From Acidimicrobiia bacterium (GTDB taxonomy: Bacteria > Actinomycetota > Acidimicrobiia > Acidimicrobiales > JANYDT01), in contig JANOJN010000272.1 of assembly GCA_031418775.1 (NCBI GenBank), positions 7,858 through 71,857 of the forward strand: a DNA stretch of 64,000 nt, in the 5' to 3' direction. The notes below the pieces were generated by a model that was not told the origin of the DNA, ran no database searches, and worked only from the letters and a program-made list of their open reading frames with translations. Numbering within the stretch: the first letter of the stretch is position 1; each line of letters starts with the position of its first letter. The position numbers and the translations under genes were made by a program. Below are positions 8,924-40,196 of this stretch, piece by piece.

Positions 8924-9078
8924 GTCGCGAATCGGAAGTGGCTCGCGGAATTCGCGAGTCAGATTTCGTTGTGGCAAGGACGCAGGAGGCAGCGCCTGCC
9001 TTGTCCAACCGCAACGACGAGGACGCCGCCACGGCGGAATCTGGCCGAGAATCCCGCAGCGGACTTGCGATTCGGGAC
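8924..9078. repeat. Long imperfect inverted repeat (about 50-nt arms) between convergent genes
   Basis: Arm 8924-8975 pairs with 9028-9078; internal hairpins CTCGCG/CGCGAG and CAAGG...CCTTG. Confidence 0.7.
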
Positions 9079-11242: not shown

Positions 11243-12265
11243 ATGCCTTCCACGATGACCGATGTGCGCCCCGAGGACCGGGCGCTGCTGGCGGAACTGT
11301 CGGGTGCAGCAGAGCGTCTGCTGGAGCGCCACCTCGCCACGTCCAAGCCCTGGTACTCCCACGAGATCATCCCCTGGTCGCTCGGGCGGGACTTCGTCCC
11401 CGGCGAAGCCTGGTCGCCCGACGACGTCGTCCTTCCGGATGCCGTCCGGAGCGCGTTGTTCGTCAACCTGCTGACCGAGGACAACCTCCCGTACTACTTC
11501 GAGACCATCGACCGGATGTTCGGCAAGAGCGACATCTGGGGTACCTGGTCGCATCGATGGACGGCGGAAGAGGCACGGCATTCCATCGCCATCCGCGACT
11601 ACCTGGTCGTCACCCGGGCCATCGACCCGTGGACACTCGAAGATGCCCGCATGGGGCAAATGAGCGGCGGTGAGGTGCCCCAGCCGCAGACCGCGGCCGA
11701 CGGGTTCGTCTACGTGGCGCTGCAAGAGCTCGCCACCCGCATCTCTCACCGCAACACCGGCAAGCTGCTGCAGGTCGAGATGGACAAGTCGGAGCATCCC
11801 GCGGCGCGTGCCGGCTACGACGTCATGGCCCGCGTCGCGGCCGACGAGAACTTCCACTACCTCTTCTACCGCGACATCACGTCGGCGGCCATCGAGGTCG
11901 ATCCGTCGTCGGTCGTCTGCGCCATCGACCGCCAGATCAGCGACTTCGAGATGCCGGGCACGGGGATCGTCGGCTTCTCCGAGCACGCTCGGGCGATCGC
12001 CAGCGCCGGGATCTACAACCTGCCGATCCACTACAGCCAAATCCTCGCGCCGGTCGTCCTTCGTCATTGGAACCTCGAAAGCATCGAGGGCCTCAGCGCC
12101 GAGGCCGAGCAGGCCCGCGAGCGCATCGTCACGCTGCTCGGCCGACTCGAGAAGGCGTCGGCGCGGATGAACGAGCGCACGGAGCGGCGGGCGGCGCGCG
12201 CCGAGGCCGACGGCGAGCCGGCCCGCACGGTGATCGCCGCCGACGACGACCTCGTCACCGTCTGA
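11243..12265 (+). CDS. desA1: Acyl-ACP desaturase (DesA1-like, ferritin-fold diiron)
   Basis: NLLTEDNLPYY, WTAEEARH, QELATRISH, DENFH diiron ligands. Confidence 0.9.
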   Translation: MPSTMTDVRPEDRALLAELSGAAERLLERHLATSKPWYSHEIIPWSLGRDFVPGEAWSPDDVVLPDAVRSALFVNLLTEDNLPYYFETIDRMFGKSDIWGTWSHRWTAEEARHSIAIRDYLVVTRAIDPWTLEDARMGQMSGGEVPQPQTAADGFVYVALQELATRISHRNTGKLLQVEMDKSEHPAARAGYDVMARVAADENFHYLFYRDITSAAIEVDPSSVVCAIDRQISDFEMPGTGIVGFSEHARAIASAGIYNLPIHYSQILAPVVLRHWNLESIEGLSAEAEQARERIVTLLGRLEKASARMNERTERRAARAEADGEPARTVIAADDDLVTV

Positions 12266-12355
12266 CGGACCGCCCCGTGGGCTGGTGCCCGAGACGAGCC
12301 GGGCCCGCCGACCCGGCTGTGGCGCGCCGGCTGCATCTGGCGGCCCGTCCCCCGA

Positions 12356-12425
12356 TGCGGCCAAACACCTCCCAGCGCTGTTCGGAGGTGTTTGACCCCC
12401 ATATACGGGGGCAACCTCTCTCCCA
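12356..12425 (+). repeat. Dispersed two-hairpin intergenic element, copy 1
   Basis: TGCGGCCAAACACCTCC-cagcgctgttc-GGAGGTGTTTGACCCCCATATACGGGGGCAACCTCTCTCCCA; matches 26940-27009 and 38763-38832. Confidence 0.85.
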
Positions 12426-12452: not shown

Positions 12453-13856
12453 GTGTCTGTCGATCTTGGTGTGGGAGCGTTGTCGACGACGCAGGCGTTG
12501 GCGTTCACCTCTCGGGTGCGGGCCGGGCACAAGGGCATCGTCAGCGCCGGGTTGACCACTCTCGACGGCCGCCTTGACGAACGCGAGATCGTGGCGTTCG
12601 TCATCGAGCAGTCCGACCGCGGGGGTGCGATCGACGCCGACGACGGCGAGGTTCTGGCCGAGGCTGCGCATCTGGCGCGTTCGCTCCGGCGGCCCCTCGT
12701 CGGGGTTCTCCACTCAACGGGCGTCGACGTGAATGCGGGTCTCGCTGCGCTCCATGGCTGGGGGCGCGCCGCCCGGGCGCTGGCGGACTGTTCCGGCCTT
12801 GTGCCGGTCGTGCTCGTGGTCGATGGCGCGGCCGTGTCGGGTGCCGCTCTGCTGCTCGGACTGGCCGACCTCGTGATCATGACCAACGTGTCCTACGCCT
12901 TCGTCAGCGGTCCGTCGATGGTGGCCGACTTCACCGGAATCGTGCTCGACAAGGAGACGCTCGGGGGCGCGGCAACGCACGCCCGCCAGTCCGGCCTTCC
13001 CGCCGCAGTGGTCGACGACGTCGCGTCGGCGCTCGATGTCGTTGCGACACTCCTGTCCTACCTTCCGGACCATGGCGACGCGCTGCCCGCGGCTCTCCCC
13101 ACCGACGACCCGACGGAGCGCACCGCCCCGGAACTCAACGATCTCATCCCGGCCTCGTCGACCGGGAGCTACGACGTGCGGTCCGTCGCCCGCGCCGTGT
13201 GCGATGCCGACTCCGTCTTCGAGGTCCGGGCCCGGTGGGCGCCCAACCTGGTCACGGCATTCGCAACCGTGGGTGGCCAACCGATCGGTATCGTCGCCAA
13301 CCAGCCGCTCGCCCTCGCCGGAACGCTCGACATCGCCGCGGCCCAGAAAGGCGCCTGGTTCGTCGCCCTGTGCGACTCGTTCAACCTTCCGATTCTGACC
13401 CTTGTCGATACGCCGGGCTACTTTCCGGGCAAAGACCTGGAATGGCGGGGAATGATCCGCCACGGTGCGCAGATGGCCTTTGCCTACGCCGAGGCCACCG
13501 TGCCGCGGGTTTGCGTCGTACTGCGCAAGGCCTACGGAGGTGCCTTCATCGTCATGGACTGCAAGACCATGGGCAACGATCTGTGCCTTGCGTGGCCGGT
13601 CGCCGAACTGGCCGTCATGGGGGCCAAGGGCGCCGTACAGATCCTGTACCGCCGCGAGACGGACGAAGAACGACTGGTGCGCGAACTCGATTACGCCGCC
13701 GAGTACCTGAACCCCTACGTTGCCGCCGAGCGTGGCTACGTCGACGCAGTTATCGAACCGGCCGAGACCCGGCGCCTCGTCGCCCGGTCATTCTCCCTAC
13801 TACGCACCAAGCGGGAGATGCTCCGCGGGAAGAAGCACGGCAACTCACCACTATAA
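12453..13856 (+). CDS. Acyl-CoA carboxylase carboxyltransferase (beta) subunit
   Basis: GIVANQP, LTLVDTPGYFPG, RKAYGGA, AVMGAKGA, NPYVAAERGYVDAVIEP, KKHGNSPL. Confidence 0.88.
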   Translation: MSVDLGVGALSTTQALAFTSRVRAGHKGIVSAGLTTLDGRLDEREIVAFVIEQSDRGGAIDADDGEVLAEAAHLARSLRRPLVGVLHSTGVDVNAGLAALHGWGRAARALADCSGLVPVVLVVDGAAVSGAALLLGLADLVIMTNVSYAFVSGPSMVADFTGIVLDKETLGGAATHARQSGLPAAVVDDVASALDVVATLLSYLPDHGDALPAALPTDDPTERTAPELNDLIPASSTGSYDVRSVARAVCDADSVFEVRARWAPNLVTAFATVGGQPIGIVANQPLALAGTLDIAAAQKGAWFVALCDSFNLPILTLVDTPGYFPGKDLEWRGMIRHGAQMAFAYAEATVPRVCVVLRKAYGGAFIVMDCKTMGNDLCLAWPVAELAVMGAKGAVQILYRRETDEERLVRELDYAAEYLNPYVAAERGYVDAVIEPAETRRLVARSFSLLRTKREMLRGKKHGNSPL

Positions 13857-16700: not shown

Positions 16701-17464
16701 ATTCGACCGAACAGGGCGATCGGCAACTGATCGAGCTACGCGACGTCTTCAAGTCGTTCGGGAAGAACCAGGTGCTGAGGGGTGTGGACCTCACCGTACG
16801 TGCACATAGTGTTGTGGGCCTCATCGGTCCATCCGGCTCCGGGAAGTCCACCCTGCTTCGGTGCATCAACCTGCTCGAGCCGGTCGACTCCGGAAGCGTG
16901 TTCGTCGGCGGCATCGAACTCACGGCCGGGGGCGTGGATGCCGATGATGTCCGCAAACGCATCGGCATCGTATTCCAGTCGTTCAACCTGGTCCCGCATC
17001 TCAGCATCCTCGACAACATCACGCTGGCCCCTCGGCGCGTTCGTGGGATCGGCCGCGGCGCGGCAGAAGATGCTGCGCGGGTTCTGCTCGAACGTTTCGG
17101 CCTCCTCGATAAGGCCTCGTCGTTCCCGGACCGACTTTCCGGTGGACAGCAACAGCGGGTCGCGATCATTCGAGCGCTGGCGATGGAACCCGAGGTGATG
17201 CTCTTCGACGAGGTCACGTCAGCGCTCGATCCCGAACTCGTCGGCGAGGTCCTCGCCGCCGTCCGCGAGCTCGCTGCATCGGGCATGACCCTGGTACTGG
17301 CCACCCACGAGATGGGATTCTGCCGCGACGTCGCCGATCAGGTCGCGTTTCTGAAGGACGGTCGGATCGTTGAGCAGGGCCCGCCGGCGAGGCTGTTCAC
17401 CGACCCGCAGCATCCGGACACCCAGCACTTCCTGCGCCGGGTCATCGAGGCCGGCCGCCTGTAG
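16697..17464 (+). CDS. Amino-acid ABC transporter ATP-binding protein (GlnQ family)
   Basis: GPSGSGKST, LSGGQQQRVAI, MLFDEVTSALDPE, THEM; ATGA overlap with permease. Confidence 0.92.
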   Translation: MNSTEQGDRQLIELRDVFKSFGKNQVLRGVDLTVRAHSVVGLIGPSGSGKSTLLRCINLLEPVDSGSVFVGGIELTAGGVDADDVRKRIGIVFQSFNLVPHLSILDNITLAPRRVRGIGRGAAEDAARVLLERFGLLDKASSFPDRLSGGQQQRVAIIRALAMEPEVMLFDEVTSALDPELVGEVLAAVRELAASGMTLVLATHEMGFCRDVADQVAFLKDGRIVEQGPPARLFTDPQHPDTQHFLRRVIEAGRL

Positions 17465-25519: not shown

Positions 25520-26911
25520 GTGAGCGTCTCTGTCGTCCTCCGATGCGCGGGGTGCGCGGCGACGGTCGACCCGCTCGATGTCGGCGCTCCCGCGCCGTTT
25601 CGCTGTCCGAACGCCGGTCGCGCCCCGAACGTCGACCATGTCCTGACCTGGGACCCGCTCCTCGGCGGAGTGCGCGGCTGGCCCGACGATACCTCGACCA
25701 ATCCGTTCGTCCGCTATCGGACGCTGCACCACAGTTACCACCTCCACCTCGGCCTCGGGGGCACCGACGCCGAATACGTTCGCCTGGTCGAGCGCATCGA
25801 TGCCGCATTGATCAAGAACGGCGGACCCGGGTTCCGCGTCGCCCCGGTGCTTCCGCTCGACGCGCTGAGTGCAGCCACGGGAGTGGATGTCTGGGGTCGC
25901 GACGACACGATTGGTGTTGCGGGATCGCACAAGGCCCGTCATCTCATGGCGATCCTCCTGCACCTCGAGGTGCGCAAGGTCCCGCTGCGCACACCTCTTG
26001 CCATCGCTTCGTGCGGCAACGCCGCCCTCGCTGCGGCAACCCTGGCCCGGGCTGCAGGCCGAACCGTTCAGGTGTTCGTGCCGACATGGGCGAACCCCGC
26101 GGTGCTCGTCGAACTGCGGGCCCTCGGCGCCCGAATCGTGGAGTGCCAGCGCAAGGACACGGATCCGCCGGGTGACCCCTGCCTGCATCGCTTTCACGAA
26201 GCGGTGGGAAAAGGTGCGCTTCCCTTCTGCGTGCAAGGTACCGAGAACGGGTTCACGATCGACGGCGGAGCGACCTCGGGACAAGAGTTCGTCGATGCGT
26301 TCGCCATGCTCGGTGTACCTGATCGACTCTTCGTGCAGGTGGGGGGCGGCGCCTGGGCCTCGGGGGTGTGGCGGGGACTGCGCGACGGTCGCGGTCTCGG
26401 GGTGATCGATCGACTCCCGGCCCTTCACTGCGTGCAGGCCCAAGGGTGTGCGCCGCTCGTGGAGGCTTGGCGTGCGGTGGCCGGCCGGGCCCTTCGGGCG
26501 TTGGGGCATGACGATTTGTTCGACGAGGGCTTCGACGTGGTTGCCGCCGCGTTGGTGACGAACGAGGCGCGCAGCGCCGTCGAATCCGCCATGCAGTGGG
26601 CGCTCACCCACCGACCCGCCGTGATGCCGGTGTGGCATGACCCGCACAGCATCGCCACCGGGATCCTCGACGACGAGGCCTACGACTGGGCGGTGCTGGT
26701 GCGCAGCATGCTGGTGAGCGGCGGGTGGCCGGTCACCGTGTCGGACGACCAGCTCACCGCGGCAACCACATTCGTGAACGGCGGGTCGATCGATGCCGAC
26801 GAGACAGGGTCGGCGGCGGCCGCCGGCCTGCTGGCGTTTCGGGACCGCGGGTGGGGTGCCGCCGACGAGCGTGTCGCCGTGACCGTCACGGGAATCCGCC
26901 GGCGTCGATGA
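25520..26911 (+). CDS. Threonine synthase-like PLP enzyme with N-terminal Cys motif
   Basis: CAGC...CPN, GSHKARH, ASCGNAALA, VQVGGG, SIATGILD, ETGSAAAAG. Confidence 0.8.
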   Translation: MSVSVVLRCAGCAATVDPLDVGAPAPFRCPNAGRAPNVDHVLTWDPLLGGVRGWPDDTSTNPFVRYRTLHHSYHLHLGLGGTDAEYVRLVERIDAALIKNGGPGFRVAPVLPLDALSAATGVDVWGRDDTIGVAGSHKARHLMAILLHLEVRKVPLRTPLAIASCGNAALAAATLARAAGRTVQVFVPTWANPAVLVELRALGARIVECQRKDTDPPGDPCLHRFHEAVGKGALPFCVQGTENGFTIDGGATSGQEFVDAFAMLGVPDRLFVQVGGGAWASGVWRGLRDGRGLGVIDRLPALHCVQAQGCAPLVEAWRAVAGRALRALGHDDLFDEGFDVVAAALVTNEARSAVESAMQWALTHRPAVMPVWHDPHSIATGILDDEAYDWAVLVRSMLVSGGWPVTVSDDQLTAATTFVNGGSIDADETGSAAAAGLLAFRDRGWGAADERVAVTVTGIRRRR

Positions 26912-26939: not shown

Positions 26940-27009
26940 TGCGGCAAATCACCTCCCAGGGTCGTTGGGAGGCGTTTTGCCCCCAGATATGGGGGCAACC
27001 TCTCTCCCA
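26940..27009 (+). repeat. Dispersed two-hairpin intergenic element, copy 2
   Basis: TGCGGCAAATCACCTCCCAGGGTCGTTGGGAGGCGTTTTGCCCCCAGATATGGGGGCAACCTCTCTCCCA. Confidence 0.85.
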
Positions 27010-27067: not shown

Positions 27068-27688
27068 ATGTTCGTCATCGGCATAGATCCAGGGCTGACG
27101 AGGTGCGGGTTCGGCGGCGTCCGTCGGACGAAGGCCGGGCTCGAAGCAGTCTGTCACGGGGTGCTGGTGACGGCGCCCGATTCCCCCCATCCCCGTCGTC
27201 TGCGTGACCTCCAACGCCAGCTCGTCGCGCTGATCTCCGAGCACCGGCCCGATGTGGTCGTCGTCGAGCGGGTGTTCTTCCAGACGAATGTCCGGACCGC
27301 CATCGGTGTTTCCCAGGCCAGTGGACTGGCGTTGGCGGCGGCCGACGAATTGGGGTGCGACATCGCGCAGTACACCTCGAACGAAGTGAAGCTGGCGATC
27401 ACCGGCGACGGCGCGGCGGAGAAGAAGCAGACCCAGGCGATGGTCGCCCGGACGTTGAAGCTGACCGAGCTCCCCCGTCCCTTCGACGCCGCTGACGCTC
27501 TGGCGCTTGCCATCCACCACCTCGGTATGGCGAGCTACGCCCGCCTTGCGTCGAGCTCGTTCGGTGCCACGCCGCACGCGGCGCCGGCGGGCGATGGCAT
27601 CGGCAATGCCCGGATCGCCACGTCCTTCGGCGGGGTGCGTCTCGCGGCGACACCGTCCGGTCCGTCCACCAAGGTGCGCGACCGGTGA
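27068..27688 (+). CDS. ruvC: Holliday junction resolvase RuvC
   Basis: IGIDPGLTRCG, VVERVFFQTN, EVKLAITGDGAAEKKQ, DAADALALAIHH. Confidence 0.95.
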   Translation: MFVIGIDPGLTRCGFGGVRRTKAGLEAVCHGVLVTAPDSPHPRRLRDLQRQLVALISEHRPDVVVVERVFFQTNVRTAIGVSQASGLALAAADELGCDIAQYTSNEVKLAITGDGAAEKKQTQAMVARTLKLTELPRPFDAADALALAIHHLGMASYARLASSSFGATPHAAPAGDGIGNARIATSFGGVRLAATPSGPSTKVRDR

Positions 27689-37111: not shown

Positions 37112-37870
37112 ATGCTTGAGATCTCCCATCTGAGCTGTTCCTACGGCGGGCCGGTCGTCGTCGACCACGTCGATCTCCACATCCGCCCGGGCGAGCTCGT
37201 CGGCATCGTCGGGCCGTCGGGCTCCGGCAAGACCACCCTGTTGCGGGCGATCCTCGGCACCGTCGAGCCGATGCACGGTTCCATCACCAAGCCCGACGGA
37301 CTTTCTGTCGCCTACGTACCGCAGGTGGAAACCGTCGACTGGAACTTCCCGGTGACCGTCAGTGAAGTCATCGTGATGACCATGCGCCGACGATCGTGGT
37401 GGCCGGGCATCTCGAAGACCGAACGGGCGGAGGTCGACGAGCTGCTCGACCGGCTCGGGCTCGGCGGACTTGGGCAGCGCCATATCCGCGAGCTCTCCGG
37501 CGGGCAGCAGCAGCGGGTGTTCCTCGCCCGCGCGTTGGCGCGGCGGCCCGACCTGCTGGTGCTCGACGAACCGACGTCCGGCGTCGACGTGCGCACCCGC
37601 CACGAGATCCTCCATCTCCTCACCGATCTCAACGCCGACGGCCTCACCATCGTGCTCACCACCCACGACCTCAACGGGCTCGCCGCACACCTCCCGCGCA
37701 TCGTCTGCTTCAACAAGACGGTGATCGCCGACGGCGCCCCCATCGACGTCCTCCGTCCCGCCGTCCTCGAGGCGACGTATGGCGCGCCGCTCGAGGTACT
37801 CATCCACGGCGGCATGCCCGTGGTGCTCGACCATGCCCCGTCCCTTCGCTCCGTCCCGAGGCCGGCGTGA
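37112..37870 (+). CDS. Metal ABC transporter ATP-binding protein
   Basis: GPSGSGKTT, YVPQ...WNFP, LSGGQQQR, LDEPTSGVD, THDL. Confidence 0.92.
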   Translation: MLEISHLSCSYGGPVVVDHVDLHIRPGELVGIVGPSGSGKTTLLRAILGTVEPMHGSITKPDGLSVAYVPQVETVDWNFPVTVSEVIVMTMRRRSWWPGISKTERAEVDELLDRLGLGGLGQRHIRELSGGQQQRVFLARALARRPDLLVLDEPTSGVDVRTRHEILHLLTDLNADGLTIVLTTHDLNGLAAHLPRIVCFNKTVIADGAPIDVLRPAVLEATYGAPLEVLIHGGMPVVLDHAPSLRSVPRPA

Positions 37871-38730
37871 GTGTCGCATCGATCGTCGCCGCGGTCGACC
37901 TGCTTGAGCCGCTTTCGTACGGGTTCTTCCGTCGCGGACTCACTGTGGCCGTGCTGGCCGGGGCGCTCTGCGGCCTCGTCGGCGTCTACGTCGTGCTCCG
38001 GTCGCTCAGCTACATCGGCCACGGGCTCTCGCACGCGGTGTTTGGTGGAGCCGCCGCCGCGGCGGTGGCGAACGTCAACTACTTCCTCGGCGCGGGCGCC
38101 TGGGGCATTGCTTCGGGACTGATGATCGGACGGGTGACCCGGCGCAAGCTGCTCTCGGCCGACGCGGCTATCGGCATCGTCACGACGGCGTCGTTCGCCG
38201 CCGGAATCGTGCTGTTCAACAAATTCGGTCAGGCGCGGCGCAGCATCGACGCAGTGCTGTTCGGAGACATCCTCGGGGTCGCGCGGAGCGACGTGTTCGC
38301 CGTCGTCGGCGTCGGTCTCGCCGTGGTCGCGGTTGTGCTCGGCGCATATCGACCGCTGCTCTATGCCACGTTCGACTCCGAAGTGGCGCGAGTGACGGGC
38401 GGGCGTCCCGACCTTCTCGACGCGGTGCTCATGGTGATGCTCTCGCTCACCGTGCTCGTCACAATGCGGGTCATCGGCGTGTTGCTGATCTCGGCGCTTC
38501 TCGTTCTTCCGGCGTCCACGGCGCGCATGCTCACCGACTCGTTTGCCCGCATGCTCGTCATCGCCCCACTACTCGGCGCGCTTACTTCCTTGGTCGGGCT
38601 GAACCTGAGCTATCACGTCAACACTTCGCCGGGCGCGACCGTCATCCTCATCAACGCCTTCGTGTTCCTCGTGGTGTTCCTGAGCACCGGGCGGGCCGGC
38701 CGGCGTCGGGTGGCTCACGTCCACGTCTGA
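37867..38730 (+). CDS. Metal ABC transporter permease (ABC-3)
   Basis: GVYVVLRSLSYIGHGLSHAVFGG, LFGDILGV, TFDSEVA, GVLLISALLVLP. Confidence 0.9.
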   Translation: MSVASIVAAVDLLEPLSYGFFRRGLTVAVLAGALCGLVGVYVVLRSLSYIGHGLSHAVFGGAAAAAVANVNYFLGAGAWGIASGLMIGRVTRRKLLSADAAIGIVTTASFAAGIVLFNKFGQARRSIDAVLFGDILGVARSDVFAVVGVGLAVVAVVLGAYRPLLYATFDSEVARVTGGRPDLLDAVLMVMLSLTVLVTMRVIGVLLISALLVLPASTARMLTDSFARMLVIAPLLGALTSLVGLNLSYHVNTSPGATVILINAFVFLVVFLSTGRAGRRRVAHVHV

Positions 38731-38762: not shown

Positions 38763-38921
38763 TGCGGCCAAACACCTCCCAGCGACGTTCGGAGGTGTAT
38801 TGCCCCCATATATGGGGGCAACCTCTCTCCTAGTGTCAGTGCCACTCGTGTTGCGAGCAGTCGAGCGAAGCGAGCGGCGCAGCGCCAGTCGAGTGGAGGG
38901 GCAACCTCTCTCCTAGTGTCA
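38763..38921 (+). repeat. Dispersed two-hairpin element, copy 3, with duplicated 3' tail
   Basis: Core 38763-38832 includes perfect palindrome TTGCCCCCATATATGGGGGCAA; GGGGCAACCTCTCTCCTAGTGTCA repeated at 38815 and 38898. Confidence 0.85.
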
Positions 38922-40196
38922 CGTGAGGAGCCATTCGGGTCCGGAGGGGGTGTCGCGGACCTCGATGCCGGAGGTGGTGAGGCGGTCGCGGATGAGGTCG
39001 GACAGGTCGTAGCGCTTGTCCTTGCGCACCTCACCACGAAGCTCGAGCAAGGTCTCGACGAATGGCGCCACCCGCTCCCGAGGGTCGGCCAACCCCTGGC
39101 CGGCTGCCTCACCGAGACGGCTGATCATCGAGCGCATCATCCGCCGCGCCTCGTCGGCTTCCTCGGACTGCAGGGTGTCGGCCGACCAGGCGTGGATCGC
39201 CGCCTCGAGGTCCAACGCGGCGCGCACGGCGCCATCGCCGTTACCGGCGGCAAGGGATTCGGCAAAGGCCGCGCCGAGTCGCTCCGTGGTGGCGCCGAGT
39301 GACGCTGCGTCGGTCGCCGCTTCTGAGTCGGTGGCGGCCGGATCGGCGACGGCTGGGGTCGTGACAGGGCGGCCGATGGCATGCGTGCCCGCAGCACCGG
39401 GGAAGCGCAACGCGTCGATCGGAACAACCGTTCCGGCCGGGTAGGTCACCGTCGACCCACCGTGACGGACCGACACCACGCCACGACCGACCACCGCTGC
39501 GGTGTCGGCGTCGAGATCGAGAATGACGGCCGTGTGCTCGTCGACGCCCAGCACGTGATGACCCTCCGGCAAGACCGCCTCGAGCATCCTCAGGCGTCGT
39601 TCGCCGAGATAGCAGAACCTCGTGTCGTGATGGCCGCCTTCGGCGTTGTCGTAGTGGGGGATGAGCGCGACCGGAAGGCCGATGGAGCCGAGGACGTCCA
39701 GTCCGTCGAGCCAGTGCGGTTCTTCTCCGGCCTTGTAGATCTCGTACACCGGGACGGTGACGCGCCCGAGCGTGAGGGCGGCGGCGGAGGCGAACGTGAC
39801 CGCGCCACCGGTTCGGAGCTTGTCGGCCAGGATCGTGTGCAGCGGCGATCCCGTCCACTGATGAAGCGCATAGGTGGGCGAGCCCGGCCCGGCGAACACG
39901 TAGGTGGATGCACGCAGAAGGTTGAAACCGCGTTCGAGAGCCACCGGATCACCGCCGACGATGCGGGTCAGCCCGGCCACGCTCAGCTCCGTCACCACCG
40001 ATTCGGCAAAGTACTGCACGGCTTTCTGGGCCAGTTCCGAGGCGTTCTCCTGAAACCCGTAGGGCGTGTCGAGCAGCGCGGCCCTGGCCGCGACTCCGAG
40101 GCGTCCGACGACCTCTCGGTGGACCTTCACCATCGTTGGTGCGGTCTCACCTGAGCCCATCAGGGTGAGGATGCGGGGAAGAGGAGCAGTCGTCAT
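38919..40196 (-). CDS. Peptidase S51/cyanophycinase-like hydrolase fused to a CysRS-type DALR/anticodon-binding domain
   Basis: LMGSGE, VFAGPGSPTY, FASAAA elbow, IPHYD, GVDEHT; C-terminal ELRGEVRKDKRYDLSDLIRDRLTTSGIEVRDTPSGPEW. Confidence 0.75.
   Translation of the reverse strand: MTTAPLPRILTLMGSGETAPTMVKVHREVVGRLGVAARAALLDTPYGFQENASELAQKAVQYFAESVVTELSVAGLTRIVGGDPVALERGFNLLRASTYVFAGPGSPTYALHQWTGSPLHTILADKLRTGGAVTFASAAALTLGRVTVPVYEIYKAGEEPHWLDGLDVLGSIGLPVALIPHYDNAEGGHHDTRFCYLGERRLRMLEAVLPEGHHVLGVDEHTAVILDLDADTAAVVGRGVVSVRHGGSTVTYPAGTVVPIDALRFPGAAGTHAIGRPVTTPAVADPAATDSEAATDAASLGATTERLGAAFAESLAAGNGDGAVRAALDLEAAIHAWSADTLQSEEADEARRMMRSMISRLGEAAGQGLADPRERVAPFVETLLELRGEVRKDKRYDLSDLIRDRLTTSGIEVRDTPSGPEWLLT

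What the first reader, a model, noticed from the sequence alone, without database searches (positions are those of the whole stretch)
12356..12425. Dispersed ~70-bp two-hairpin intergenic element, three copies in 64 kb
Seen: copies at 12356-12425, 26940-27009 and 38763-38832, all intergenic and all in the same orientation. Shared layout: TGCGGC(C)AAA, hairpin 1 (CACCTCC...GGAGG(T/C)G), hairpin 2 (TTGCCCCC-A(T/G)AT-..GGGGGCAA), tail CCTCTCTCC(C/T)A. Differences fall mostly in loops, and the unpaired tail is invariant. No GTAG REP tetranucleotide and no terminal inverted repeats. Inference: a lineage-specific REP/PATE-like family (HUH-transposase-mobilised elements use hairpin ends), or a structured RNA motif. 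The minus-strand tail GGAGAGAGG is SD-like.
Basis: partly seen in the sequence, partly recalled or inferred. Interest (0 to 1): 0.65.

Follow-up and report, generated by a model that had tools for sequence, protein, structure and literature searches.

The report
Hairpin repeat family with nuclease partner
The three 70-bp copies belong to a family of about 90 hairpin-forming intergenic repeats per genome in a group of uncultured Acidimicrobiia, and the family appears to be paired with one DNA-binding nuclease gene that sits between two copies, much like the REP/RAYT systems of proteobacteria but with an unrelated enzyme.

Summary
The three copies sit at the stated coordinates, all on the + strand. 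They belong to 86 copies in this 5-Mb genome. No Rfam family matches.

The anatomy needs correcting:
- Hairpin 1 is a 12-16-bp covarying stem that overlaps hairpin 2.
- The invariant part is a 14-nt box, GGGCAACCTCTCTC.
- 12 copies are symmetric doublets with 18-21-nt terminal inverted repeats.

The box side lies 3-32 nt from a convergent gene's stop codon far more often than chance predicts. The family is old: 84 of 87 relatives' copies sit at the same place here. It occurs in only two genera, and each genome has its own version of hairpin 1.

No RAYT/Y1 transposase exists in any of 12 genomes. Instead, one single-copy gene (AbiEi-type wHTH plus DUF559/Vsr-like nuclease, G000:C29:1382-2377) is flanked by two inverted copies in every lineage that carries the family. 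Genomes without that gene have no repeats, or only degenerate ones. Distant homologues in other Acidimicrobiia are flanked by their own unrelated hairpin repeats, which are also dispersed genome-wide.

Best reading: a REP/REPIN-like system with a non-HUH enzyme, with copies secondarily serving as 3'-end hairpins. Enzyme activity and mobility are inferred, not shown.

The parts
12356..12425 (+). Copy 1 (singlet, 70 nt). Head TGCGGC. Hairpin 1 at 12357-12373 with 12383-12399. Hairpin 2 at 12395-12401 with 12406-12412. Box GGGCAACCTCTCTC at 12409-12422, tail to 12425. Lies between co-directional + genes (11255-12265 and about 12516-13856).
   Evidence: The orthologous copy is present in G002, G003, G005 and G008.
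26940..27009 (+). Copy 2 (singlet). Box at 26993-27006. Lies 28 nt after the stop of the + gene 25520-26911 and 58 nt before the + gene 27068-27688. The minimum-energy fold uses the alternative helix CGUUGGGAGG / UCUCCCAACG, which encloses hairpin 2.
   Evidence: The locus in G001 (L132) has no element.
38763..38832 (+). Copy 3 (singlet, first part of a composite). Box at 38816-38829. Lies 32 nt after the stop of the + gene 37867-38730.
   Evidence: The loci in G004 and G001 have short spacers without the element.
38843..38897 (+). Body of module M2 (CACTCGTGTTGCGAGCAGTCGAGCGAAGCGAGCGGCGCAGCGCC...), a separate dispersed repeat inserted after copy 3.
   Evidence: 27 of 86 copies carry it. It is present in the genomes G004 and G001, which lack the M1-type copy, each time with locus-specific flanking duplications. 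It is absent at this locus in relative L037.
38898..38921 (+). Second tail plus flank, GGGGCAACCTCTCTCCTAGTGTCA, a duplicate of 38815-38838. TCA at 38919-38921 is the stop codon of the convergent gene 38919-40196 (-).

Best explanation
The element is a REP/REPIN-like, non-autonomous hairpin repeat.

Layout: head TGCGGC, a long covarying hairpin, a GC hairpin, then an invariant single-stranded box GGGCAACCTCTCTC.

Proposed history and mechanism:
1. It spread in the ancestors of two genera of one uncultured Acidimicrobiia family. It landed in intergenic DNA, preferentially with its box end a few bases past a gene's stop codon.
2. Since then it has been inherited vertically.
3. Its proposed partner is one single-copy gene, G000:C29:1382-2377 (outside the window). 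This gene encodes an AbiEi-type winged-helix DNA-binding domain fused to a DUF559/Vsr-like PD-(D/E)XK nuclease, and it lies between two inverted copies with their boxes facing outward.
4. Inferred mechanism: the winged helix reads the box, and the nuclease nicks or cuts the extruded hairpin. Repair or copying then spreads the repeats and keeps them homogeneous within a genome. When the gene is lost, the repeats decay.
5. The symmetric doublets equal the gene cassette with its interior deleted between the two palindromic hairpins, which makes them a MITE-like form.
6. Fixed copies probably also serve the neighbouring gene as 3'-end hairpins.

Shown: the anatomy, copy number, positions, age, covariation, the gene-repeat association and its replication in other lineages.
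Inferred: binding, cutting, mobilisation and any RNA role.
For: The family:
- 86 copies in this genome, and 75-91 in five congeners.
- The box occurs only in genera g1 and g6 among 301 genomes of the order.

Position:
- The box side faces a stop codon in 57 of 84 copies (p = 0.0014). A box lies 3-32 nt from that stop in 48 of those 57, directly in 28 and through M2's duplicated tail in 20. The head side is neutral, 42 of 83.

Age:
- 84 of 87 syntenic copies from relatives have a copy at the same place here.
- Congeners without the family show short, empty spacers at 6 loci.
- Copies in genus g6 sit at different loci, so insertions there were independent.

Structure:
- Hairpin 1 has 8 of 12 pairs changed on both sides. 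Covariation score is 0.198 against 0.108 in shuffles (0 of 500 as high), and the slid controls score 0.03-0.08.
- Each genome has its own hairpin-1 type at orthologous loci: G000 AACACCTCC, G001 TTACCTCGA, G004 TCACCTCCG.

Partner gene:
- No Y1/RAYT in any of 12 genomes.
- The wHTH-nuclease gene is flanked by inverted copies in G000, G001, G004, G005 and G008. Copies are seen on one side only in G002, G006 and G018.
- G004 has only 11 boxes, and 2 of them flank this gene.
- Orthologues occur only in genomes that carry the repeat.
- G003's contigs end exactly at the two flanking copies. G007 lacks both the gene and the repeats. G013 has a hairpin scar at the locus, and only 4 of its 26 boxes are exact, against 28 of 52 in G018 and 35 of 41 in G001.

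Replication in other lineages:
- Homologues at about 25-33% identity in G022, G027 (three paralogues), G028, G032 and G038 are each flanked by their own hairpin repeat. Each of those repeats is dispersed at roughly 15-90 places.
- In 77 named Acidimicrobiia loci, flanking inverted repeats exceed the 95th percentile of mismatched-flank controls in 44 loci.
- AACCT/AGGTT recurs in 13 of 44 arms, against 4% of control windows.

The protein:
- The N-terminal 210 residues have the AbiEi fold (Foldseek 6y8q, E = 9.5e-6).
- The D..ExD..H..D motif is conserved across the family: E, D, H and the last D are invariant, the first D nearly so.
Against: - Nothing shows that the protein binds or cuts the repeat. 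The link is positional and phyletic.
- The phyletic pattern rests on few independent events: about three losses.
- The nuclease domain matches Pfam MTES_1575/DUF559 only below the gathering scores. It is modelled at low confidence (pLDDT below 50 for residues 215-264).
- No insertion polymorphism was seen among the close species, so current mobility in this clade is not shown.
- No target-site duplication or cleavage site was identified.
- All genomes are MAGs, and gene positions come from my own crude gene caller.
- The family-wide conservation of CCTC/GAGG and of the box could reflect an RNA or protein-binding function unrelated to the nuclease.
- The earlier notes of this scan that reach the same idea are AI notes, not independent evidence.
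Confidence: 0.6

Rival explanations
1. The element is primarily a structured cis-acting RNA: a 3'-UTR terminator or stabiliser, or a two-state switch. It is kept by selection at each locus, and the nuclease gene merely happens to carry copies.
For: - The box lies 3-32 nt after stop codons.
- In tight convergent gene pairs the element fills the whole spacer.
- Hairpin 1 covaries.
- Folds are strong (z = -4 to -6) and two alternative conformations exist.
- At one orthologous locus, G000 has a plain GC hairpin where G001 has the element.
- REPs in general lie downstream of genes (PMC3733652).
Against: - Orientation relative to transcription is mixed: 31 antisense and 18 sense between co-directional genes, and 9 in divergent spacers. 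Sense copies, including window copies 1 and 2, are just as well conserved.
- G-T and A-C mismatches are about equal: 72 vs 63 and 21 vs 39.
- There is no U-tract, and the terminator scan does not flag the copies.
- This reading does not explain why unrelated repeats flank homologous nuclease genes in other lineages.
Confidence: 0.15
2. The wHTH-nuclease protein is a DNA-binding regulator or defence protein, and the dispersed copies are its binding sites (a regulon or chromosome-organising sites). The protein plays no part in spreading them.
For: - The N-terminal domain has the fold of the AbiEi antitoxin and of Rv2827c. From my own knowledge, AbiEi represses its own promoter by binding inverted repeats there.
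- The box and the predicted recognition region are both conserved across subclades, while hairpin 1 varies.
Against: - Copies are strictly intergenic and sharply bounded, and they include doublets and tandem arrays. The families differ completely between lineages and even between paralogues in one genome. This is the pattern of mobile repeats, not of an evolving regulon.
- The nuclease motif is invariant.
- Copies sit at gene 3' ends rather than at promoters.
Confidence: 0.15
3. It is an ordinary MITE derived from a DDE-transposase insertion sequence with matching terminal inverted repeats, which has since been lost or was not assembled.
For: - 12 of 86 copies have 18-21-nt terminal inverted repeats.
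- MAG assemblies break at repeats and often miss insertion sequences.
Against: - No target-site duplication is seen at doublets or singlets.
- 74 of 86 copies have only one such end, yet they share an identical 5' boundary.
- In this genome no element bounded by these termini carries a transposase. The inverted pairs enclose ordinary genes or the nuclease gene.
Confidence: 0.06
4. It is a classical REP/REPIN or PATE mobilised by a Y1 HUH transposase (RAYT or IS200/IS605 TnpA).
For: - Hairpin ends, an absence of target duplications, intergenic location, and the mix of singlets and doublets all resemble REPs.
Against: - PF01797 gives no hit at E <= 0.01 in six-frame searches of 12 genomes, while 6 of 14 control genomes give hits.
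- There is no GTAG tag.
Confidence: 0.03

Closest known systems
REP/REPIN repeats with their RAYT gene (REPtrons) of Proteobacteria (PMC3116915; 10.1101/2021.07.10.451892; PMC3733652)
   Same: - Short hairpin repeats at tens to hundreds of intergenic copies, mostly downstream of genes.
- Both singlets and inverted doublets occur.
- One single-copy gene is flanked by inverted copies.
- Inheritance is vertical and long-lasting.
- Each lineage has its own repeat sequence that tracks the gene.
- The repeats decay when the gene is lost.
   Different: - The flanked gene is a wHTH plus PD-(D/E)XK (DUF559/Vsr-like) nuclease, not a Y1 HUH transposase. None exists in 12 genomes.
- There is no GTAG tag.
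- The unit is longer (70 nt): two overlapping hairpins plus a 14-nt invariant box.
- The host is Actinomycetota.
CGTC-tagged REPs (PMC3733652)
   Same: - REP-like palindromes with an unpaired tail.
- That paper reports that they lack a dedicated tyrosine transposase.
   Different: - There is no terminal CGTC tag here.
- Here a candidate dedicated enzyme is identified.
MITEs such as Correia or Nezha elements (own knowledge; mentioned in PMC3733652)
   Same: - The doublet form is about 110 bp with 18-21-nt terminal inverted repeats and strong secondary structure.
- It sits next to genes.
   Different: - No target-site duplication.
- No DDE parent element.
- Most copies are one-ended singlets.
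AbiEi antitoxin / Rv2827c (PDB 6y8q, 1zel)
   Same: - The N-terminal ~210 residues of the partner protein have this fold.
- From my own knowledge, AbiEi binds inverted repeats.
   Different: - The domain is fused to a nuclease domain.
- The neighbouring genes are an acyl-CoA synthetase and a small membrane protein, not an AbiEii toxin.
- Its cognate repeats are dispersed genome-wide.
Intrinsic terminators and repeated terminator motifs (for example the TRIT motif of M. tuberculosis; own knowledge, not checked here)
   Same: - A GC-rich hairpin directly after stop codons, repeated across the genome.
   Different: - No U-tract.
- Copies occur in both orientations.
- The invariant box is not explained by termination.

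Membership tests
REP/REPIN-RAYT system | Short palindromic repeats at high copy number, in extragenic DNA | tested here: met
   86 copies, and 9 of them overlap one of my gene calls by more than 20 nt
REP/REPIN-RAYT system | Cognate RAYT (Y1 HUH transposase, PF01797) in the genome | tested here: not met
   0 hits in G000 and 11 relatives, while the control genomes give hits
REP/REPIN-RAYT system | Conserved GTAG (or CGTC) tag at one end | tested here: not met
   The consensus TGCGGC...CTCTCCCA(ACG) has neither tag at an end
REP/REPIN-RAYT system | A single-copy gene flanked by inverted copies of the repeat | tested here: met
   Met, but with a different enzyme: G000:C29:1382-2377 and its orthologues in G001, G004, G005 and G008
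REP/REPIN-RAYT system | Vertical inheritance, and decay after loss of the gene | tested here: met
   84 of 87 copies are shared with relatives. G007 lacks both gene and repeats. G013 has a scar at the locus and degenerate boxes. Only a few independent events support this.
MITE of a DDE insertion sequence | Terminal inverted repeats on every copy | tested here: not met
   Only 12 of 86 copies have them
MITE of a DDE insertion sequence | Target-site duplication | tested here: not met
   None is visible at the ends of doublets or singlets. The filled/empty comparisons are too diverged to give exact junctions.
MITE of a DDE insertion sequence | A parent element with the same termini that encodes a transposase | tested here: not met
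   Inverted pairs within 5 kb enclose ordinary genes or the nuclease gene. No gene family recurs next to copies.
Any Rfam RNA family | A match at the gathering score | tested here: not met
   There is no match on the element. The best E-value is 0.44, to unrelated miRNA models.
Intrinsic (Rho-independent) terminator | A GC hairpin followed by a U-tract | tested here: not met
   The hairpin is present but has no T-run, and the scan does not flag the copies
AbiEi-DUF559 (Vsr-like) protein family (the partner protein) | N-terminal AbiEi winged-helix fold | tested here: met
   Foldseek 6y8q E = 9.5e-6, also 1zel. pLDDT is above 80 for most of residues 1-210. The Pfam AbiEi_4 and AbiEi_3_N hits are below their cut-offs.
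AbiEi-DUF559 (Vsr-like) protein family (the partner protein) | C-terminal DUF559/MTES_1575 nuclease domain with catalytic residues | tested here: inconclusive
   Pfam MTES_1575 E = 4e-4 to 9e-4 in 6 of 11 orthologues and DUF559 in 1 of 11, all below gathering. The D..ExD..H..D motif is conserved (first D nearly invariant, the rest invariant) and aligns with canonical homologues (IIExDGRRWH). The structure model is poor in this region.

The most novel reading that the evidence does not exclude
AbiEi-wHTH/DUF559 (Vsr-like PD-(D/E)XK) proteins are a second, non-HUH class of host-resident enzymes, and each one creates, moves and homogenises its own population of REP-like hairpin repeats. This window's element would be one such population. 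It would be kept for millions of years together with its single nuclease gene and would decay when that gene is lost. That makes it an actinobacterial counterpart of the REPIN-RAYT partnership that arose independently.
Probability: 0.45. Interest if true: 0.85.

Novelty: new variant of a known kind. Interest (0 to 1): 0.72.

Why it matters
- REP-type repeats are among the commonest non-coding features of bacterial genomes, but RAYT is the only enzyme known to be dedicated to them. Whole classes, such as the CGTC REPs, have no known mobiliser.
- A nuclease of a different fold that is bracketed by its own dispersed palindromes in many Acidimicrobiia lineages would give a very large, uncharacterised protein family (AbiEi-DUF559) a concrete DNA substrate.
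- It would also show that the 'resident enzyme plus repeat population' lifestyle evolved at least twice.
- It offers a directly testable system: one protein and one 70-nt substrate.
- On the practical side, these repeats break MAG assemblies exactly at the partner gene.
- They also occupy the 3' ends of dozens of genes, where they may set transcript ends.

Tried and rejected
- Rfam at the gathering threshold and at permissive E-values: nothing matched.
- RAYT/Y1 transposase: absent.
- Autonomous element between inverted copies: C233, C290 and C293 hold ordinary genes.
- A gene family recurring next to copies: none.
- Small ORF or SD function of the tail: the ATG in the hairpin-2 loop is present in only about 65% of copies, and no start codon lies at a fixed distance.
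- Calling the transcribed strand from G-T vs A-C mismatches: balanced, so uninformative.
- Clean empty sites among the close species: none. The three exceptions are a partial deletion between internal TGGGAG repeats (C209) and a replaced spacer (C135).
- Canonical terminator scan: copies are not flagged.
- Sequence search of the partner protein against PDB and NCBIfam: nothing.
- The search for related loci with the most diverse protein alignment failed because no block was conserved enough. A narrower alignment worked.
- An apparent M2-like hit at window 17157-17176 is the ABC-ATPase signature region, a chance match.

Full report
**Observation.** The three copies are at 12356-12425, 26940-27009 and 38763-38832, all on the + strand. 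They align without gaps over 70 nt, and similarity stops sharply at both ends. The window is C272:7858-71857 of a 5.04-Mb, 315-contig assembly with 66% G+C. Earlier notes and record titles name the organism as an uncultured Acidimicrobiia bacterium from stream metagenomes. An HMM of the three copies finds 86 non-overlapping copies (48 +, 38 -) in this genome. A fourth + copy lies just upstream of the window (C272:235). Rfam has no match, at the gathering threshold or at permissive E-values.

**Anatomy.** The consensus is TGCGGCAGAACACCTCCCAGCGGCGTTCGGAGGTGTTCTGCCCCCATATATGGGGGCAACCTCTCTCCCA.
Positions 2-18 pair with 28-44.
- Hairpin 2 (40-46 with 51-57) shares GCC(CC) with hairpin 1, so the two full stems are mutually exclusive.
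- A third pairing also competes: the 3' arm plus loop end, CGTTGGGAGG, with the tail, TCTCCCAACG. It is the minimum-energy fold of window copy 2 on both strands.
- Folds are strong: -37 to -52 kcal/mol, z = -2.5 to -6.
- 12 of 86 copies are symmetric doublets of about 110 nt. They begin with the inverted tail (C)GTTGGGAGAGAGGTTGCCCC and an extra GC hairpin, so they have 18-21-nt terminal inverted repeats.
- No target-site duplication is visible.

**Context.** Gene positions come from my own codon-usage gene caller, in which stop codons are exact and start codons approximate.
- The box side faces the stop codon of a convergent gene in 57 of 84 copies (binomial p = 0.0014).
- In 28 of these the distance is 3-32 nt. 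In 20 more it is 77-104 nt, because module M2 intervenes and its own duplicated tail abuts the stop.
- The head side is neutral (42 of 83) and sits farther from stops. Over all copies the median is 56 nt on both sides, but without the M2-spaced copies the tail side is much closer (Mann-Whitney p = 2e-4).
- Spacer classes: co-directional antisense 31, co-directional sense 18, convergent 23, divergent 9. The genome background is 66% co-directional, 17% convergent and 17% divergent.
- Window copies 1 and 2 belong to the minority 'sense, co-directional' class. Copy 3 lies between convergent genes.
- The same box-to-stop proximity is seen in the other subfamilies, in G004 and G018.
- The copies are not canonical terminators: there is no T-run and the scan does not flag them.

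**Distribution and age.**
- The full pattern occurs 75-91 times in five congeners. It occurs once in G001, not at all in G004 and G007, 5 and 21 times in two genomes of genus g6, and nowhere in 30 other relatives.
- The box alone (<=1 mismatch) occurs in only G000 and the two g6 genomes among 301 genomes of the order.
- With looser matching, G001 has 41 boxes, G004 11, G007 0, G013 26 and G018 52.
- Of 115 copies fetched from five named MAGs, 87 have both 400-bp flanks on one G000 contig. Of those, 84 have an element at the same place, covering 51 distinct G000 loci.
- The three exceptions are a partial deletion and a replaced spacer.
- So this clade's copies predate its speciation, and none is demonstrably recent.
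- Genomes without the family have short spacers at six tested loci, including the loci of window copies 2 and 3.
- G001 copies absent from G000 give filled/empty pairs. In one of them G000 has a plain GC hairpin where G001 has the element.
- Copies in genus g6 lie at loci that are empty in G000. The family therefore did move on a deeper time scale.

**Constraint and concerted change.**
- In 82 orthologous pairs the immediate flanks are 50-60% identical (ungapped), and the loops and positions 7, 8, 38 and 39 are 57-80% identical.
- Positions 11, 13-17, 31-33, 35, 41-44 and 53-67 are 100% identical.
- Across subfamilies, hairpin 1 keeps its structure through double changes in 8 of 12 pairs. The covariation score is 0.198 against 0.108 in shuffles (0 of 500 reach it), and slid controls score 0.03-0.08.
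- Each genome has one hairpin-1 type even at orthologous loci: G000 AACACCTCC/GGAGGTGTT, G001 TTACCTCGA/TCGAGGTAA, G004 TCACCTCCG/CGGAGGTGA.
- That pattern means homogenisation within genomes, or co-evolution with a trans-acting factor, rather than simple decay.
- The core CCTC/GAGG and the box GGGCAACCTCTCTC are conserved family-wide: the core is invariant, the box nearly so.

**The partner.**
- No Y1/RAYT gene exists in G000 or in 11 relatives. No gene family recurs next to copies.
- One gene, G000:C29:1382-2377, lies between two inverted copies with their boxes facing outward.
- Orthologues at 48-99% identity exist only in G000, G001, G002, G004, G005, G006, G008 and G018. All other relatives have at best paralogues at 35% identity or less.
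- The gene always sits next to the same acyl-CoA synthetase gene. Both flanking copies are present in G000, G001, G004, G005 and G008.
- In G002, G006 and G018 copies are seen on one side only, because of a degenerate tail, a contig end or a remnant.
- In G004 and G018 the cassette is inverted, as expected for recombination between inverted repeats.
- G004 has only 11 boxes, and two of them are these flanking copies.
- G003 seemed to lack the gene, but its two contigs end exactly at the flanking copies.
- G007 has the synthetase and the downstream gene 125 nt apart, with no nuclease gene and no boxes anywhere in the genome.
- G013 has a bare hairpin scar (CGAGAGAGGCTGCCCCC-ACGGC-TGGGGGGACCCTCTCTCG) at the locus. 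Its boxes are mostly degenerate: 4 of 26 exact, against 28 of 52 in G018 and 35 of 41 in G001.
- For REPINs, the literature states that populations decay once the RAYT gene is lost (10.1101/2021.07.10.451892).

**Replication elsewhere.**
- Homologues at about 25-33% identity in other families of the order are each flanked by a different hairpin repeat. Those repeats are dispersed in their genomes.
- G027 has three paralogues with three private families: at least 24, 25 and 15 places. The 46-nt palindromes are mostly 100% identical.
- G028 has about 20 places, G032 more than 40, G022 40-90 and G038 19.
- In 77 loci from named Acidimicrobiia, flanking inverted repeats beat the 95th percentile of mismatched-flank controls in 44 and the control maximum in 19. 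The set includes Microthrixaceae, Iamiaceae, Ilumatobacteraceae and the cultured Actinospongicola halichondriae.
- The arms lie about 87 nt before and 63 nt after the gene. They contain AACCT/AGGTT in 13 of 44 cases, against 4% of control windows. The box here contains the same AACCT pentamer.

**The protein.**
- Only 12 close orthologues exist among 5.8 billion proteins.
- Residues 1-210 model confidently as the AbiEi antitoxin fold (6y8q, E = 9.5e-6; Rv2827c).
- The C-terminal part matches Pfam MTES_1575/DUF559 only below the cut-offs, and it is poorly modelled.
- However, R256, D258, E269, D271, H276, D285 and R286 are invariant among the orthologues. They align with the canonical IIExDGRRWH...D motif of the wider family.
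- No AbiEii-like gene is adjacent.

**Mechanism.**
- Shown: a repeat family that is old, vertically inherited, structure-constrained and subtype-homogeneous per genome, and a wHTH-nuclease gene bracketed by it in every carrier lineage. The same layout is replicated with unrelated repeats in other lineages.
- Inferred, step 1: the winged helix reads the invariant box, and the nuclease cuts at or near the extruded hairpin.
- Inferred, step 2: copying or repair then spreads and homogenises the copies.
- Inferred, step 3: because hairpins 1 and 2 are palindromes, recombination between the two inverted flanking copies can delete the gene. This leaves exactly the doublet (a join in hairpin 1) or the G013-type scar (a join in hairpin 2). 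The doublets would then be the MITE-like derivative.
- Inferred, step 4: fixed copies probably act as 3'-end hairpins for the gene that ends at the box side, since in tight convergent pairs nothing else fits in the spacer.

**Rivals.**
- A purely RNA function is weakened by the mixed orientation, the balanced G-T/A-C mismatches and the cross-lineage gene association. Transcript data could not be obtained.
- A binding-site regulon, a DDE-type MITE and a RAYT-mobilised REP are weighed separately among the rival explanations.

**Module M2.**
- 27 of 86 copies, including window copy 3, are followed by GTGTTGCGAGCAGTCGAGCG...GCGCAGCGCC and a second tail.
- The M2 body also occurs in G004 and G001, which lack the M1-type copy. 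There each copy is flanked by locus-specific, imperfect 15-35-nt direct repeats that often include a stop or start codon.
- 'Tail 2' in the window (38898-38921) is therefore a duplication of tail 1 plus its flank, associated with M2 insertion. M2 presence or absence differs between orthologous loci.

**Novelty and caveats.**
- Library searches found no paper linking DUF559/AbiEi proteins to dispersed repeats. Known dedicated REP enzymes are tyrosine transposases, and CGTC REPs have none (PMC3733652).
- Other agents of this scan reached the same gene-plus-palindromes idea starting from the gene side in other genomes. I read those notes only after reaching this reading, and they are not independent evidence.
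- All genomes are MAGs. The phyletic support rests on few independent loss events. No biochemical or transcript evidence exists.

Noticed in passing
window 38843-38921; also L148-L157 (G004, G001): Module M2 is a separate dispersed repeat (GTGTTGCGAGCAGTSRAGCGAAGCGGAGCRGCGCAGCGCC). Its copies are flanked by locus-specific, imperfect direct repeats of 15-35 nt that often include a gene's stop or start codon. This is an unusually long target duplication and the mechanism is unknown.
   Followed up: partly
window 11570-11636 (-): An Rfam hit to the ASdes TB sRNA (RF01781, 42.4 bits, gathering score 40) lies antisense inside the + gene 11255-12265. It may only reflect conserved coding sequence of a desaturase-like gene.
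   Followed up: no
L212-L231 (G027): The 46-nt perfect palindromes of G027 are 100% identical at 25 or more sites. They have C-rich 5' flanks and G-rich 3' flanks, and many are bordered by locus-specific short tandem repeats. This suggests recent activity and repeat-induced local duplication.
   Followed up: partly
G003:C259 end and C184 start; G006:C289 start (L316, L312, L185): MAG contigs break exactly at the copies flanking the nuclease gene, so the partner gene drops out of assemblies. A simple presence/absence screen would wrongly score it as absent.
   Followed up: yes
G000:C209:~8990-9060 vs L059: One G000 copy lost its tail, hairpin 2 and half of hairpin 1 through a deletion between the internal direct repeats TGGGAG(AGAGG) and TGGGAG(GTG).
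   Followed up: yes
L190 (G004), L191 (G018) vs L184 (G000): The repeat-gene-repeat cassette is inverted relative to the neighbouring acyl-CoA synthetase gene in G004 and G018. This is consistent with recombination between its inverted repeats.
   Followed up: partly
L195 (G022, same family, genus g4): The repeat flanking G022's nuclease homologue (CGACGTTGGGAAGATCGCGTACCTGGGAGGTGG...TTCCCAACGTC) shares the CGTTGGGA / GGGAGGTG / TCCCAACG motifs with this window's element. The two repeat families may have a common origin.
   Followed up: no
window 12290-12340: The gene upstream of copy 1 has its own GC hairpin (AGCCGGG...CCCGGCT) before the element. In the sense orientation, therefore, the element does not replace that gene's 3' hairpin.
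   Followed up: no
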